Positions 26,387 to 29,815 are shown, counted from the first letter of the stretch. The stretch is DNA of 64,000 nucleotides from a virus (IMGVR_UViG_3300048599_000816:32545-96544), one strand, 5' to 3'. Translations and numbers: made by a program. Notes: a model not told the origin generated them from the letters alone.

Positions 26387-26825
26387 AATAATAAACTACA
26401 CCAATCTCTGGTTCAAACTCTATTTGCTCTGCTAAAAATATTGCTTTAATGTTTGTCCAATCTGGATGAAGAAAAGAAGAAGCAACTGTAGTATTAGTTA
26501 TAGGATAAGCACCATCATTTTTAATTGAAATTCCGCATTGATATTTATTGGGCAGAACTACAGTATAATCGTCAAAATTCCAAAGATAAAAATCATTTTC
26601 AATTTTATGTTTTTCTAAAACATCCATGACGTCAAAACGACGTTTTACATTAAGCTCAAGTTTATCTTTAGGAGAAGCACATAAAGGACAAAATTTACTA
26701 TCAGAAACATACTTCTTGTGATCTTCACACTCGCGATTTGTACAAGTATGTATCCATATAGGAACTGTTATATCTTTTGCTTTGATCTTTATATATGGTC
26801 CTAAATAACAACGATTTTGACTCAT
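26379..26825 (-). CDS. hypothetical protein
   Basis: Minus ORF. Confidence 0.4.
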   Translation of the reverse strand: MSQNRCYLGPYIKIKAKDITVPIWIHTCTNRECEDHKKYVSDSKFCPLCASPKDKLELNVKRRFDVMDVLEKHKIENDFYLWNFDDYTVVLPNKYQCGISIKNDGAYPITNTTVASSFLHPDWTNIKAIFLAEQIEFEPEIGVVYYYD

Positions 26826-27817
26826 TATACTCCCATAGCTAAATGTTCCCAGACTTTATCTTCATCTACGCTAATTAAAACAAAATCATCTTTATCATGT
26901 AGTCTTGATCCCCACTCACCATTTTCACAATATGGTTTTGCTCTAACCCAACATCCAATTGTTGGATGCAAATGCAAAACTGCAGCAGTTGGATCATGAT
27001 ATTTTTTGCCATCACGATTTAATTTGAATCTCCACTCCATTCCTTCTCTGAACAATTCAGCAGCTCTATTCTCTGGTTTTATAGACATGATTTTTTTATG
27101 CACTTCAGTGTCATAAACCATATAATGACATACATTTTTTCCAACAAAAAATCTTGACTTTATGTCCATATTTAAAAAATTATGTGCTCCATTACGATCA
27201 CCATTCAAATTAAATGTTGCACATCGCTCTTTACCCTCAAATTTAGGGAGTTTCTTTACGTTAATTTTATGAGTGTCATAACCAATAAATCCACCTTGCA
27301 TGACAGCTTTATTTAAAGGTCGGGGGAGTTCAATATGTCCGAACGTCTTTAAAGGACCACATCCAAAAAACTCTATATTTTCATGTTGTGTTAGAATGTC
27401 AACAGCAAGTTGACGACTTAATACCGCGTTAGAAGAAAAATATGGGAATTTATAAACATCAAGAAGTGCTTTATGAATATTTGTTGGTTGTTCTTTTCTT
27501 CTTCCAAGTTCAGGAACACCAATCAATACGTCAGTTTTTCCAAGTGTTTTTAGCAAGAAATCTACAATAGCGATTTGAGATTCATCACCAGGTGAAATCA
27601 AAATAGCTTTAATATCTACACCTGCAGAAAACAAATAGCACAATGCAAAAAAGTCATCTGGGTCATGACCTATATCAGTTTCAACAATCATTTTTATTGG
27701 TTTATTATCATCAGGACTTGTTTGTGTAATTGTGTTATACCTATAACCACATGAATCACACAACTCCCAACCATTCCAAGTTTTTTCCATAGACTTAAAA
27801 CAACGTCTACAATCCAT
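26825..27817 (-). CDS. nucleoside hydrolase (IUNH)-like protein with N-terminal zinc ribbon
   Basis: Asp cluster ETDIGHDPDD (DxDxGxDD) after CRRC...CDSCG ribbon. Confidence 0.55.
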   Translation of the reverse strand: MDCRRCFKSMEKTWNGWELCDSCGYRYNTITQTSPDDNKPIKMIVETDIGHDPDDFFALCYLFSAGVDIKAILISPGDESQIAIVDFLLKTLGKTDVLIGVPELGRRKEQPTNIHKALLDVYKFPYFSSNAVLSRQLAVDILTQHENIEFFGCGPLKTFGHIELPRPLNKAVMQGGFIGYDTHKINVKKLPKFEGKERCATFNLNGDRNGAHNFLNMDIKSRFFVGKNVCHYMVYDTEVHKKIMSIKPENRAAELFREGMEWRFKLNRDGKKYHDPTAAVLHLHPTIGCWVRAKPYCENGEWGSRLHDKDDFVLISVDEDKVWEHLAMGV

Positions 27818-28069
27818 TTACTTCCTGTCTAATTGTTGTAATGTTACAGCTCCAAATGTAGCTTTCATAAAACTATTTTCTAAAGTCGAACAAAAATTGC
27901 ACCATTTTTTCTTTTGAGTTTGGGTCGAAGACCACTTTCAGTTCGTATGTCAAGAGCAGATGAGTGGTTTGCACAATCTTCTTTTTTTGAGCAATCAACT
28001 AAACAGCAAATCTGATCACCATCAACTATTGAATGATTAATTTCAACCATTTGACTTCCTTTCAGTTTA

Positions 28070-28471
28070 CTATTGTCCCATCTTATCTACTAAGATCTTT
28101 AGTTCGTCACGTAATGCAAAAAGATTCTTTGCTTCATCTGTTTCTACACTGTGATTAGATGCATGCCAAACATTATTCCAGTAAGAATCGCTTTTTAGTG
28201 TATTATATACTTGTAAAACGCTATTCATACCTCCTAACCCAGGTTCACGACCATCAGCAAGATCGTGTTCGACAGCCCAGATCATTTGACTGACATAATA
28301 TTGTCCAGTAGAATCAGCATAATTTGCTGCAATCTGTTTAAGCTTTGCGATATCTTCATCTTTGCAATTTTCGTTATCTGTTTGCATCATTAAGTGAATG
28401 AGTTCGTTATTCACACATTTTTGCGCAATCTCTTTAACTTTTGTATCCCAATACGTCGAGAAAGCATTCAT
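28070..28471 (-). CDS. hypothetical protein
   Basis: Minus ORF. Confidence 0.4.
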   Translation of the reverse strand: MNAFSTYWDTKVKEIAQKCVNNELIHLMMQTDNENCKDEDIAKLKQIAANYADSTGQYYVSQMIWAVEHDLADGREPGLGGMNSVLQVYNTLKSDSYWNNVWHASNHSVETDEAKNLFALRDELKILVDKMGQ

Positions 28472-28518
28472 TTTCTATTCCTTGGTAAGAGTTTCACTAC
28501 ACAATCAATAGTTTAAAA

Positions 28519-29097
28519 CTAAAATCGATTGTTGATCTCTAATCTACCAAACCTTTTTCTTAAAAAGCGTAAAACTTTTACTACATTCATTGCATCCACT
28601 AATGCGCTATGTCTTCCCTTTTTTGTTCCAGGAAGTTTAAGATAATCAAGGATAGAATCTAGTCCCGCGCTTGGATTTTCTGTAACACCAATAGCTTGAA
28701 GACCACGCCAAAGAGGCACTAAATCAACAATTCTCTTTGAATATAGAAACTCTTTGCCTGATTTTTTATATATCTGTTCAATGAAATCTATATCAAATTT
28801 TGGATTTTGACCAATTATCAATGCTTCATTTTTCCCAAAATATTTCATAATAATTGAGTCAAACTTCTTCACTGCATCTTTACGTGAAATAGCTTTTTTA
28901 TTATGCTCATCAATGTTGATATGATTCACTTTAAGAGCTTCTTCTGTACAATCCTTTTTTCTTGCTTTAATGAAGAACTCACCTTTTTCAATAACGACAA
29001 GACTTGGACAATTTACTACGACAAATCCAATTGATAAACAAGGATGTATAAGAGGATCAGTGCCGCCTGTTTCTGTATCGAGCGATATTCTTATCAT
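28519..29097 (-). CDS. DEDDh 3'-5' exonuclease (DnaQ/oligoribonuclease-like)
   Basis: Exo I LDTETGG, Exo III HSALVDAMN. Confidence 0.65.
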   Translation of the reverse strand: MIRISLDTETGGTDPLIHPCLSIGFVVVNCPSLVVIEKGEFFIKARKKDCTEEALKVNHINIDEHNKKAISRKDAVKKFDSIIMKYFGKNEALIIGQNPKFDIDFIEQIYKKSGKEFLYSKRIVDLVPLWRGLQAIGVTENPSAGLDSILDYLKLPGTKKGRHSALVDAMNVVKVLRFLRKRFGRLEINNRF

Positions 29098-29304
29098 TTA
29101 CTTCCTATCTTTAAACTCAGAATAGTCATCATCCCATAAAGGCGTATCTCTATCCATTTTCCAGAAAATATCAGGATCGTGATAATAACCCTCTTCTGTC
29201 ATGATTCTTCCACCCTCGAAAGTCATCCATTCATCATCACCAAATGAGACATGTCTTATTTTAATTCCAAGTCTCATTTTTTCTATTGCTTCAATTTTTG
29301 TCAT
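29098..29304 (-). CDS. hypothetical protein
   Basis: 1-nt spacing to neighbour. Confidence 0.35.
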   Translation of the reverse strand: MTKIEAIEKMRLGIKIRHVSFGDDEWMTFEGGRIMTEEGYYHDPDIFWKMDRDTPLWDDDYSEFKDRK

Positions 29305-29311
29305 TTACTTC

Positions 29312-29815
29312 CTATTCATGACTGATATACTTAGAAAATCTTGAAGTTTGTTCTGGTGCTTCAGGAAAGTCGTATACGTAAGTATCTACAGTCATTGTTG
29401 CTTCAATTATGGGTTCAATTTCGTTCCATGTGCCACCTGCAAGGCCACAGCCAATCCTTGGCATATGAACTGTAATATTTGTACCTTTCACAGCCATATA
29501 AACTTGTTTTAAACACTGCCTGAGCGCTTTCAGATGTAAGGGCTTGAAGTTGTTTTCTTTTGAACCAAAACCATTCTGGGCAATCATATTAACAACTGAA
29601 ATATCATTGTTGACAGAAACAATTTGAATCTTACCTAAACGAAAATCTTCTTCTCTAGACCAACAACGGTAAGAGGATTCAGGGCCATTACCAAAAGCTG
29701 TTGTAACTGCAATAACAAAACCCGCTCCCCACCCGCCAGAATTATTACAAATGTGTACAATATAAGCAGGAGTTTTTACTGGCTTTGTTGCATCACCTTC
29801 AAGATAATTAATCAT
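29312..29815 (-). CDS. macro-domain (ADP-ribose binding/processing) protein
   Basis: NNSGGWGAGFVIAV and IGCGLAGG resemble macro GGGV and ISTGIYG motifs; SD AAGGG; motif 29856-29868. Confidence 0.55.
   Translation of the reverse strand: MINYLEGDATKPVKTPAYIVHICNNSGGWGAGFVIAVTTAFGNGPESSYRCWSREEDFRLGKIQIVSVNNDISVVNMIAQNGFGSKENNFKPLHLKALRQCLKQVYMAVKGTNITVHMPRIGCGLAGGTWNEIEPIIEATMTVDTYVYDFPEAPEQTSRFSKYISHE

What the first reader, a model, noticed from the sequence alone, without database searches (positions are those of the whole stretch)
26825..29815. Macro domain, nucleoside-hydrolase-like and DEDDh exonuclease cluster directly downstream of MVP/HPr
Macro domains bind and hydrolyse ADP-ribose derivatives, and IUNH-fold enzymes cleave N-ribosidic bonds. 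Together with pncB and a NadR-like ribosylnicotinamide kinase elsewhere in the window, this looks like a set for handling ADP-ribose/NAD-derived molecules. That is the chemistry used by NAD-depleting and (c)ADPR-signalling bacterial immune systems (Thoeris, TIR/SIR2 systems). It may be a counter-defence or NAD-reconstitution function with a gene complement different from the described NARP1/NARP2 pathways.
Basis: inference. Interest (0 to 1): 0.6.

Follow-up and report, generated by a model that had tools for sequence, protein, structure and literature searches.

The report
Three unlinked accessory enzymes, huge phage
The macro-domain, exonuclease and nucleoside-hydrolase-like genes are all real and look catalytically intact, but they are neighbours in a variable stretch of a roughly 427 kb phage genome, not a conserved NAD/ADP-ribose pathway; the macro gene most likely strips ADP-ribose off nucleic acids, a known kind of phage counter-defence.

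Summary
All three calls hold at the stated coordinates, on the minus strand.

- **Macro (29312-29815):** 45-46% identical to the solved SCO6735/BT1257 macrodomains, with their key residues kept.
- **Exonuclease (28519-29097):** complete DEDDh motif, RNase T/ExoI-like fold.

The functional link between them is not supported. Relatives at about 86% nucleotide identity keep MVP, HPr, macro, exonuclease, DUF1848 and pncB but lack the IUNH domain. Homology breaks exactly at the domain boundary, and the N-terminal zinc ribbon of the window protein is a separate 55-aa ORF there. None of 40-odd other IUNH loci has a macro or this exonuclease within 6-10 kb.

The "NadR-like" gene is a CoaD-CoaE fusion. 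pncB is a genuine NAPRTase, but no NARP1, NARP2 or NARP3 gene set is present.

Best reading: an accessory-gene hotspot. The macro is a likely orphan eraser of ADP-ribose on thymine or uracil (anti-DarT-like). The IUNH substrate is unknown; a XopQ-like role in cleaving cADPR signals is not excluded, but nothing specific supports it.

The parts
29312..29815 (-). Macrodomain protein (167 aa) of the SCO6735/BT1257 subclass of ALC1/TARG1-like ADP-ribosyl hydrolases. Part of the backbone shared by related phages.
   Evidence: PDB phmmer gives 2afc 3.9e-37 and 5e3b 2.6e-32, at 46% and 45% identity. H21, N24, Q80, G122 and G124 correspond to SCO6735 H24, N27, Q85, G126 and G128 (read, with residue roles from PMC9411070). 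PADLOC DarG 33 bits; NCBIfam DarG 28 bits against a cut-off of 250. Conserved at 72-88% in L031, L033, L034, L035 and L036.
29098..29304 (-). 68-aa ORF of unknown function (phrog_3474). Variable: absent from L031.
   Evidence: PHROG match 4.1e-14. No counterpart in the blastn comparison with L031. Present in L058, L059 and L060.
28519..29097 (-). Stand-alone DEDDh 3'-5' exonuclease (192 aa) with an RNase T/ExoI-like fold. Adjacent to macro in all close relatives.
   Evidence: Pfam RNase_T 46.6 bits. Invariant D7, E9, D102, H163, D168. AlphaFold2 pLDDT 89.9. Foldseek top hits are ExoI and RNase T at TM 0.72-0.80. phrog_192 'DNA polymerase exonuclease subunit' 2e-19. PADLOC DEDDh 61 bits and CBASS exonuclease effector 50 bits.
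28070..28471 (-). 133-aa ORF of unknown function. Variable: no counterpart in L031.
   Evidence: No Pfam, PHROG, NCBIfam or PADLOC hit. Window 28519-27836 has no match in L031.
27880..28050 (-). 56-aa ORF of unknown function. Variable.
   Evidence: No family hit. Absent from L031. Replaced by a 77-aa ORF in L058.
27696..27817 (-). N-terminal CxxC...CxxC zinc-ribbon extension (residues 1-41) of the IUNH ORF. Homologous to a free-standing 55-aa ORF in relatives.
   Evidence: tblastn of residues 1-46 to L031 5718-5855 gives 80% identity. The DNA alignment shows homology ending at the domain boundary. Other family members start at the position equivalent to M43. This segment of the model has low pLDDT (42-59).
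26825..27695 (-). IUNH-fold (PF01156-like) N-ribohydrolase domain, a member of a deep-branching family found mainly in jumbo and huge phages. A presence/absence cassette.
26379..26825 (-). 148-aa Cys-rich ORF whose start overlaps the IUNH stop codon. Backbone gene that directly follows the zinc-ribbon ORF in relatives lacking IUNH.
   Evidence: 82% identity to L031 5869-6312. No family hits.
18423..19640 (-). Context: pncB, a genuine nicotinate phosphoribosyltransferase. Conserved in relatives.
   Evidence: TIGR01514 313.6 against a cut-off of 269.55. Present in L031 and L035.
15774..17003 (-).
   Evidence: TIGR01510 138.5 against a cut-off of 103.3, and Pfam CoaE 53.7 bits. NadR models score only 16-21 bits.
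57537..60977 (-). Context: DnaE-type DNA polymerase III alpha subunit, a possible partner for a proofreading DEDDh exonuclease.
   Evidence: Pfam DNA_pol3_alpha 227 bits, plus PHP, finger and HHH_6 domains.

Best explanation
The region is part of a long, co-directional stretch of auxiliary genes in a roughly 427 kb huge phage. It holds three independent enzymes rather than one pathway.

1. **Macro protein.** It belongs to the SCO6735/BT1257 subclass of ALC1/TARG1-like ADP-ribosyl hydrolases. By inference from SCO6735, it binds ADP-ribose attached to a pyrimidine base (thymine in ssDNA, uracil in RNA) or to an acidic protein residue, and hydrolyses the ribosyl linkage to release free ADP-ribose. 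The conserved Gln stands at the position where DarG and TARG1 carry their catalytic Lys. In a phage this most plausibly works as an orphan 'antitoxin-like' eraser that undoes host ADP-ribosylating defences such as DarT2, as AdfM and AdfN do.
2. **DEDDh protein.** It is a generic two-metal 3'-5' exonuclease of RNase T/ExoI shape. It is kept next to macro in the immediate clade. Its role is either proofreading or end-trimming for the phage's own DnaE replisome, or processing of nucleic-acid 3' ends.
3. **IUNH-like protein.** It is a Ca2+-dependent ribosyl hydrolase of a deep-branching family typical of jumbo phages. Here it is fused in frame to a small zinc-ribbon ORF. It sits in a hotspot just downstream of the exonuclease, where close relatives carry different cargo or none. 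Its substrate is unknown.

Shown here: folds, motifs, gene presence/absence and lack of conserved synteny. Inferred: all substrates and the counter-defence role.
For: Identity of the parts.

Evidence that this is not a module:
- Relatives at about 86% nucleotide identity (L031, L032, L034) have R2K-MVP-HPr-170aa-macro-exo-ZnR(55aa)-148aa-83aa-DUF1848...NT5C-HD/OB-NAPRTase, without the IUNH body. The breakpoints are at window 27696/27695 and about 26835.
- L061 (exonuclease 84% identical) has macro-exo followed by a 103-aa ORF and an ABC_tran fragment.
- L033 (exonuclease 54%) has a Nuc_deoxyri_tr2 gene in that slot instead.
- IUNH homologues in 21 IMG/VR loci, in L004 and L014, and in 17 bacterial loci have no macro, no exonuclease of this kind and no recurrent neighbour.
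- Macro relatives in 8 other viral contigs have neither an IUNH gene nor this exonuclease nearby.

Macro function: SCO6735 removes DarT-made thymine-ADPr and uracil-ADPr (PMC9411070, PMC13036486). Phage orphan erasers are established counter-defences (AdfM, PMC13309987; AdfN, PMC11825919).

Exonuclease: a DnaE polymerase lies in the same window, and the best PHROG match is 'DNA polymerase exonuclease subunit'.
Against: - Macro and exonuclease stay adjacent in four different configurations (window/L058, L031/L034, L061, L033). A functional macro-exonuclease pair therefore cannot be excluded, although L035 and L036 (macro 72% identical) lack it.
- Two lineages carry glycosidases of different folds (IUNH, NDT-like) in the same slot. 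This could mean selection for a glycosidase activity there rather than random cargo.
- Two DNA-contacting lysines of SCO6735 (K34, K89) are Ala31 and Gly84 here, so DNA may not be the preferred substrate.
- No DarT, and no host, is known for this phage.
- Yeast Poa1p, an ADP-ribose-1''-phosphate phosphatase, also matches the N-terminal half of the macro protein (E 4e-7).
- The exonuclease is about 29 kb from DnaE and does not reach any DnaQ equivalog cut-off.
Confidence: 0.6

Rival explanations
1. Macro, the IUNH-like protein and the exonuclease, together with pncB and a NadR-like kinase, form a coordinated set. It degrades or recycles ADP-ribose and NAD-derived molecules to counter NAD-depleting or cADPR-signalling defences, as a new NARP-like pathway.
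For: - All three enzymes are intact.
- pncB is genuine and is conserved in the same 10-kb neighbourhood as macro in L031 and L035.
- An NAD-dependent ligase creates a need for NAD.
- An AAA_28 kinase is present.
- Nudix genes lie near macro in L035 and L036.
Against: - The IUNH domain is dispensable in the closest relatives and is never linked to macro elsewhere.
- 'NadR' is a CoaD-CoaE fusion, and the AAA_28 kinase scores 22 bits against a cut-off of 341.
- No NMNAT, NadE, NAMPT, Adps/Namat or PnuC occurs among the ORFs of at least 180 aa.
- NaMN made by pncB cannot reach NAD without NadD and NadE.
- Canonical IUNH enzymes act on nucleosides with a free 5'-OH, not on ADPR.
Confidence: 0.08
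2. The IUNH-like protein acts alone as a counter-defence enzyme, analogous to XopQ. It would use the IUNH Ca2+ site to cleave a ribosidic bond in an ADPR-derived or other nucleoside-type immune signal, such as 2'cADPR or 3'cADPR from Thoeris. The slot downstream of macro-exonuclease would then be an anti-defence hotspot.
For: - XopQ, a PF01156-fold protein inactive on ordinary nucleosides, hydrolyses 2'cADPR and disables type VI Thoeris (bioRxiv 10.64898/2026.06.15.732069).
- The window family is as far from housekeeping hydrolases as XopQ is (11-17% identity; Pfam score at threshold).
- It is concentrated in jumbo phages, with 9 of 21 IMG/VR contigs at 200 kb or more. In the pattern-based scan of 185,579 species genomes it was found at only 16 loci.
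- It behaves as a mobile presence/absence cassette.
- It carries extra invariant residues (H115, K227, C230, H231, W290, W323). A Thr stands where canonical enzymes have the Glu of the EFN motif that binds the 5'-OH.
Against: - The leaving-group His-Asp pair typical of N-ribohydrolases is retained.
- Bacterial members are lone chromosomal genes in Myxococcota and Planctomycetota with no defence context.
Confidence: 0.12
3. Housekeeping nucleotide and RNA metabolism. The IUNH protein, with NT5C, dCMP deaminase and pncB, salvages bases and ribose from degraded host nucleic acid. The macro protein removes ADP-ribose-1''-phosphate or O-acetyl-ADP-ribose by-products, for example of RNA repair. The exonuclease trims tRNA/RNA 3' ends ahead of the phage CCA-adding enzyme.
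For: - The window and its relatives are rich in nucleotide and RNA-repair genes. These include NT5C, a YhaM-like HD/OB exoribonuclease, a CCA-adding enzyme, RlaP, a ligase-like protein, Metallophos and dCMP deaminase, with Rnl1 and Nudix in L036 and L035.
- The macro protein matches yeast Poa1p at E 4e-7, and PHROG 335 is labelled 'phosphatase'.
- The exonuclease fold is closest to RNase T and ExoI.
- The IUNH catalytic residues are canonical.
Against: - The macro protein is far closer to SCO6735/BT1257 (E 1e-32 to 1e-37) than to Poa1p.
- No Tpt1/KptA or 2H phosphoesterase was found among the scanned ORFs.
- The window has no tRNA genes.
- The IUNH gene is dispensable, which fits an accessory role better than a core metabolic one.
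- The family is very remote from known salvage hydrolases.
Confidence: 0.2

Closest known systems
SCO6735 (Streptomyces coelicolor, PDB 5E3B) and BT1257 (Bacteroides thetaiotaomicron, PDB 2AFC/2FG1): a subclass of ALC1/TARG1-like macrodomain hydrolases
   Same: 45-46% identity over about 140 residues. The same length, with only 1-3-residue gaps in the alignment to both solved homologues, so the longer loop that defines this subclass appears to be kept. His, Asn, Gln (at the position of the catalytic Lys) and the GCGLAGG phosphate loop are conserved.
   Different: It is encoded by a phage. The DNA-positioning Lys34 and Lys89 of SCO6735 are Ala31 and Gly84 here, with a Lys two residues further on. 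Activity is untested.
Phage orphan ADP-ribose erasers: AdfM (PhiKZ gp104, macrodomain, anti-DarT2; PMC13309987) and AdfN (T4 NADAR, anti-DarT1; PMC11825919)
   Same: A stand-alone eraser domain in a phage with no cognate toxin, and a large phage genome. The predicted reaction matches that of AdfM: removal of ADPr from thymine in ssDNA.
   Different: Only marginal pairwise similarity to gp104 (E 0.016 over 66 residues). It belongs to a different macro subclass, with Gln instead of the DarG-type Lys. No experimental link to DarT.
Canonical IUNH nucleoside hydrolases (RihA/YeiK, CfIU-NH, URH1; PF01156)
   Different: 11-17% identity. A two-residue insertion in the Asp motif (ETDxGxDxDD). Thr in place of the Glu of the EFN motif. 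Its own set of invariant residues (KNxCH and two Trp). A zinc-ribbon N-terminal fusion in the window copy.
XopQ/HopQ1 (PF01156-fold 2'cADPR glycosidase, PDB 4P5F; bioRxiv 10.64898/2026.06.15.732069)
   Same: A divergent IUNH-fold enzyme in a conflict setting that keeps the Ca2+/Asp site. It is the precedent showing that this fold can destroy ADPR-type immune signals.
NARP1, NARP2 and NARP3, and 'NAD-jumbo phage' gene sets (bioRxiv 10.1101/2024.02.11.579819; PMC13464706; PMC11662467)
   Same: A jumbo phage carrying pncB and an NAD-dependent DNA ligase, as already described for NAD-jumbo phages.
   Different: The window has no Adps/Namat, no NAMPT+NMNAT and no PnuC+NadR. Nor is pncB clustered with nadD and nadE here.
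DEDDh exonucleases: RNase T, ExoI, DnaQ/epsilon and Cap18
   Same: Complete DEDDh motif. TM 0.7-0.8 to RNase T and to the ExoI nuclease domain. The PHROG label is 'DNA polymerase exonuclease subunit'.
   Different: It reaches no equivalog cut-off. Only six detectable sequence relatives were found, all from the same phage clade. It is not adjacent to the polymerase gene.

Membership tests
Macrodomain, SCO6735/BT1257 subclass (ALC1/TARG1-like) | Significant full-length sequence similarity to SCO6735 and BT1257 | tested here: met
   E 2.6e-32 and 3.9e-37; 45% and 46% identity.
Macrodomain, SCO6735/BT1257 subclass (ALC1/TARG1-like) | Gln at the position of the DarG/TARG1 catalytic Lys, plus the conserved Asn and the Gly-rich phosphate loop | tested here: met
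   Q80, N24 and G122/G124 align with Q85, N27 and G126/G128 (alignment; residue roles from PMC9411070).
Macrodomain, SCO6735/BT1257 subclass (ALC1/TARG1-like) | DNA-positioning Lys34 and Lys89 | tested here: not met
   Ala31 and Gly84 stand at the aligned positions, with Lys86 nearby (alignment).
Macrodomain, SCO6735/BT1257 subclass (ALC1/TARG1-like) | Hydrolysis of thymine- or uracil-linked ADP-ribose | not testable with these tools
   Needs an enzyme assay.
DarG antitoxin (DarTG2) | Macro domain plus a C-terminal DarT-binding domain, with a catalytic Lys and an adjacent darT gene | tested here: not met
   Only 167 aa. NCBIfam DarG 28 bits against a cut-off of 250. Gln replaces the Lys. No DarT-like hit among the scanned ORFs.
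AdfM (PhiKZ gp104-type phage macrodomain) | Orthology to gp104 | tested here: not met
   Pairwise BLASTP E 0.016, 21% identity over 66 residues.
IUNH nucleoside hydrolase (PF01156) | Pfam gathering threshold | tested here: met
   35.4 against 34.2 bits, a marginal pass.
IUNH nucleoside hydrolase (PF01156) | IUNH fold | tested here: met
IUNH nucleoside hydrolase (PF01156) | N-terminal DxDxxxDD Ca2+/catalytic Asp cluster, the Asn of the EFN motif and the His-Asp pair | tested here: met
   D48, D52, D54, D55, N203, H274 and D275 are invariant in 28 sequences and colinear with RihA and YeiK. There is a two-residue insertion, and Thr replaces the Glu of the EFN motif.
IUNH nucleoside hydrolase (PF01156) | N-ribohydrolase activity on nucleosides | not testable with these tools
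   Needs an enzyme assay.
XopQ-type 2'cADPR glycosidase | Closer in sequence or structure to XopQ than to canonical hydrolases | tested here: not met
XopQ-type 2'cADPR glycosidase | Enlarged active site that accommodates ADPR, and cleavage of 2'cADPR | not tested
   Model coordinates and ligand co-folding were not available.
DEDDh exonuclease (RNase_T, PF00929) | Exo I, II and III motifs with His (D-E-D-D-h) | tested here: met
   D7, E9, D102, H163 and D168 are invariant. Pfam 46.6 against 24 bits.
DNA polymerase III epsilon (DnaQ) | Equivalog or subfamily score, and association with the polymerase | tested here: not met
   TIGR00573 32.4 against 71.5 bits. The gene lies about 29 kb from dnaE.
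NARP1, NARP2 and NARP3 NAD reconstitution pathways | Adps+Namat, or NAMPT+NMNAT, or PnuC+NadR | tested here: not met
   pncB is a NAPRTase equivalog. The CTP_transf_like protein is CoaD. The AAA_28 kinase scores 22 against 341 bits. No other hits among ORFs of at least 180 aa.

The most novel reading that the evidence does not exclude
The deep-branching IUNH family seen here is concentrated in jumbo and huge phages, is mobile as a cassette and is remote from all characterised nucleoside hydrolases. It could be a phage counterpart of XopQ: a Ca2+-dependent glycosidase that destroys an ADPR-derived or nucleoside-type immune signal such as the Thoeris cADPR isomers. The slot downstream of the conserved macro-exonuclease pair would then be an anti-defence hotspot where glycosidases of different folds are swapped in (IUNH in the window, an NDT-like protein in L033).
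Probability: 0.12. Interest if true: 0.75.

Novelty: new member of a known kind. Interest (0 to 1): 0.35.

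Why it matters
Taken as found, the region is mostly ordinary. It adds a SCO6735-type macrodomain to the growing list of candidate phage erasers of nucleic-acid ADP-ribosylation. It also shows that gene proximity in a huge-phage auxiliary block is not evidence of a pathway.

The more useful output is a well-defined, structurally confident IUNH-fold family: 437 or more members, nine of the 21 IMG/VR contigs that carry it 200 kb or longer, intact active site, unknown substrate. XopQ was recently shown to use this same fold to cleave 2'cADPR. 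That makes the family a cheap and specific candidate to test for immune-signal degradation by phages.

Tried and rejected
- **Known-phage identity.** Megablast of 20 kb and tblastn of the IUNH protein against 50,697 GenBank phages gave no match.
- **IUNH plus the neighbouring DUF1848 as a queuosine/queuine salvage pair.** No literature link was found between DUF1848 and queuine. DUF1848 also persists in relatives without IUNH, so the idea was dropped.
- **Guilt by association for IUNH.** All-against-all clustering of neighbours in 17 bacterial and 22 phage loci found no conserved partner. The apparent clusters were shadow ORFs, the DUF1501 genes that are abundant in Planctomycetes, or the Gp23-like capsid gene.
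- **An apparent 898-aa IUNH fusion in L025.** The N-terminal 600 residues have no domain, so it is probably an ORF-extension artefact.
- **Specific kinship to XopQ.** Not found.
- **Orthology to AdfM.** Not found.
- **Operon boundaries.** Promoter and terminator scans were at chance level: 43 promoter-like sites found against 43.1 expected, and 5 terminator-like sites against 4.0.
- **tRNA genes to support a tRNA-repair reading.** None in the window.
- **Exonuclease relatives in IMG/VR.** None confirmed.
- **Composition of the IUNH cassette.** GC is 0.337 against 0.32 for the window, so there is no compositional sign of recent foreign origin.
- **Literature on PF15891.** Nothing found.

Full report
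**Setting.** The window is AT-rich (GC about 0.32) and almost every gene lies on the minus strand. The IUNH protein and the macro protein each occur at 100% identity on a JGI contig of 426,911 bp. Relatives sit on viral contigs of 350-650 kb. The window also encodes the following:
- a DnaE-type polymerase, topoisomerase IA, an NAD-dependent ligase and an FtsK-like ATPase;
- a CCA-adding enzyme and RlaP;
- an MVP-like protein and HPr.

This is a huge-phage genome. It has no close match among 50,697 deposited phage genomes.

**Observation.** The three calls are correct at the stated coordinates.
- *Macro (29312-29815).* It is below the Pfam threshold (18.8 against 22 bits). It is nonetheless an unambiguous homologue of two solved macrodomains: BT1257 at E 3.9e-37 and SCO6735 at E 2.6e-32, with 46% and 45% identity.
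- *Exonuclease (28519-29097).* It passes Pfam RNase_T (46.6 bits) and has all five DEDDh residues.

The family invariants are ETDxGxDxDD, TFNLNG and FHDPTAA. They align colinearly with the Asp cluster, the catalytic Asn and the His-Asp pair of YeiK and of RihA.

The layout needs two corrections. A 171-aa ORF separates HPr from macro, and three small ORFs of 68, 133 and 56 aa are interspersed among the three enzymes.

**Are the three genes a unit?** Comparative evidence says no.
- *Closest relatives.* L031/L032 and L034 are about 86% identical in DNA. They share the order R2K ATP-grasp, MVP, HPr, 170-aa ORF, macro, exonuclease, then DUF1848, NT5C, HD/OB nuclease and NAPRTase. They lack the IUNH domain.
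- *Breakpoints.* Homology stops at window 27696 and resumes at about 26835. That is exactly the IUNH domain.
- *Zinc ribbon.* The 41-residue CxxC...CxxC N-terminus of the window protein exists in these relatives as a free 55-aa ORF, directly followed by the 148-aa ORF. All other family members start at the position equivalent to Met43. The window gene is thus a cassette fused in frame to a resident mini-ORF. A good Shine-Dalgarno sequence (AGGAAG) precedes Met1 and none precedes Met43, as read.
- *Other variable pieces.* The 68-aa ORF, the 133-aa and 56-aa ORFs and a PEMT-like membrane protein are likewise absent from these relatives.
- *Other configurations of the slot.* L061 has a 103-aa ORF and an ABC-ATPase fragment after the exonuclease. 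L033 has a 213-aa ORF and a Nuc_deoxyri_tr2 protein. L058 reproduces the window arrangement.
- *IUNH elsewhere.* Homologues in four other huge-phage loci, 21 IMG/VR loci and 17 bacterial loci never have a macro or this exonuclease within 6-10 kb. They have no recurrent neighbour at all.
- *Macro elsewhere.* Relatives in eight other viral contigs have neither partner.

Only the macro-exonuclease adjacency persists within the immediate clade. It is lost in relatives whose macro is 72% identical.

**The NAD argument.** pncB is a true NAPRTase and is conserved in relatives. The 'NadR-like' protein is a CoaD-CoaE fusion (TIGR01510 138.5 against 103.3 bits). The other candidate is a lone AAA_28 kinase with 22 bits to a NadR model whose cut-off is 341. 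All 36 ORFs of at least 180 aa were scanned against Pfam. None is an NMNAT, NadE, NAMPT, a Prs-like enzyme, PnuC or Nudix. None of NARP1, NARP2 or NARP3 (PMC13464706) is therefore present. pncB together with LigA in jumbo phages has already been described (PMC11662467).

**What each gene most likely does.**

*Macro.* SCO6735 removes DarT-made ADP-ribose from thymine in ssDNA and rescues cells from DarT (PMC9411070). It also removes uracil-linked ADPr from RNA (PMC13036486). It uses Gln85 where DarG and TARG1 have a catalytic Lys. The window protein keeps His21, Asn24, Gln80 and Gly122/Gly124. It has Ala31 and Gly84 in place of the DNA-positioning Lys34 and Lys89.

Phage-encoded orphan erasers are an established counter-defence: AdfM in PhiKZ (PMC13309987) and AdfN in T4 (PMC11825919). 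The window protein is not an AdfM orthologue and not a DarG (28 against 250 bits). I therefore file it as a new member of a known kind, with function inferred. Its nearest cellular homologues, at about 50% identity, are chromosomal proteins of Bacteroidota.

*Exonuclease.* The AlphaFold2 model has pLDDT 89.9. It is closest to the ExoI nuclease domain and to RNase T, with Orn, Cap18 and Cas-associated DnaQ domains close behind. The best PHROG match is 'DNA polymerase exonuclease subunit'. The window encodes a DnaE polymerase, so a proofreading or end-trimming role is the simplest reading. It is not demonstrated.

*IUNH.* The family has at least 437 members. Nine of the 21 IMG/VR contigs that carry it are 200 kb or longer. 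In cellular genomes it turns up sporadically: 16 loci in a pattern-based scan of 185,579 species, mostly Myxococcota and Planctomycetota. It is roughly equidistant from every solved IUNH subfamily, at 11-17% identity.

**Verdict.** A counter-defence flavour is plausible for the macro gene, but there is no coordinated ADPR/NAD set. The finding is a new member of known kinds, plus one uncharacterised enzyme family worth a direct assay.

Noticed in passing
window 15774-17003 (-): A phage-encoded fusion of pantetheine-phosphate adenylyltransferase (CoaD) and dephospho-CoA kinase (CoaE). These are the last two steps of CoA synthesis in one protein, as in eukaryotic COASY.
   Followed up: partly
window 29873-30388, 37514-38005 and 44906-45448 (-): Three short proteins (163-180 aa) that look like pieces or miniatures of defence-type ABC/AAA_15/AAA_21 ATPases. 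Their PADLOC hits are to PtuA, mad3, AriA and GajA. They could be decoys or inhibitors of host defence ATPases, or gene remnants.
   Followed up: no
window 24916-25623 (-): A DUF1848 protein conserved across the clade. It matches the PADLOC model RTasDUF1848, which is associated with defence reverse transcriptases (66 bits). Its function is unknown.
   Followed up: partly
L033 2494-2970 (+): In a relative, the slot between the exonuclease and DUF1848 holds a Nuc_deoxyri_tr2 (PF15891, 74 bits) protein. This is an N-glycosidase/transferase-type fold unrelated to IUNH, occupying the place where the window has IUNH.
   Followed up: partly
window 30397-34178 (-): An R2K ATP-grasp protein, an 878-aa major-vault-protein-like protein (MVP shoulder and Vault repeats) and HPr form a block conserved at 72-91% identity in close relatives. 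More distant relatives (L035) keep R2K and HPr but lack MVP.
   Followed up: no
window 42827-52214 (-), and L035 and L036: The window has an RNA-repair flavoured gene set: a CCA-adding enzyme, RlaP, an ATP-dependent ligase-like protein, Metallophos and a YhaM-like HD/OB nuclease (at 20920-21894). Relatives add T4 Rnl1-type RNA ligase and Nudix genes.
   Followed up: no
L035 (GCA_028717785.1, contig JAQUND010000003.1, 108,985 bp): This contig is binned as 'Candidatus Nanoarchaeia archaeon'. It carries the same phage-clade genes (RlaP, CCA enzyme, R2K, HPr, macro at 72% identity, NAPRTase, HD/OB) plus an integrase. It is probably a mis-binned phage fragment.
   Followed up: no
L044, L049 and L055: In several other jumbo-phage contigs the IUNH-family gene lies within a few kb of a T4 Gp23-like major capsid gene. 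The family therefore spans distinct jumbo-phage lineages, with GC from 0.27 to 0.60.
   Followed up: partly
window 56142-57540 (-): An AAA_28 P-loop kinase and a dCMP deaminase sit immediately downstream of dnaE. This suggests a small nucleotide-metabolism group attached to the replication genes.
   Followed up: no
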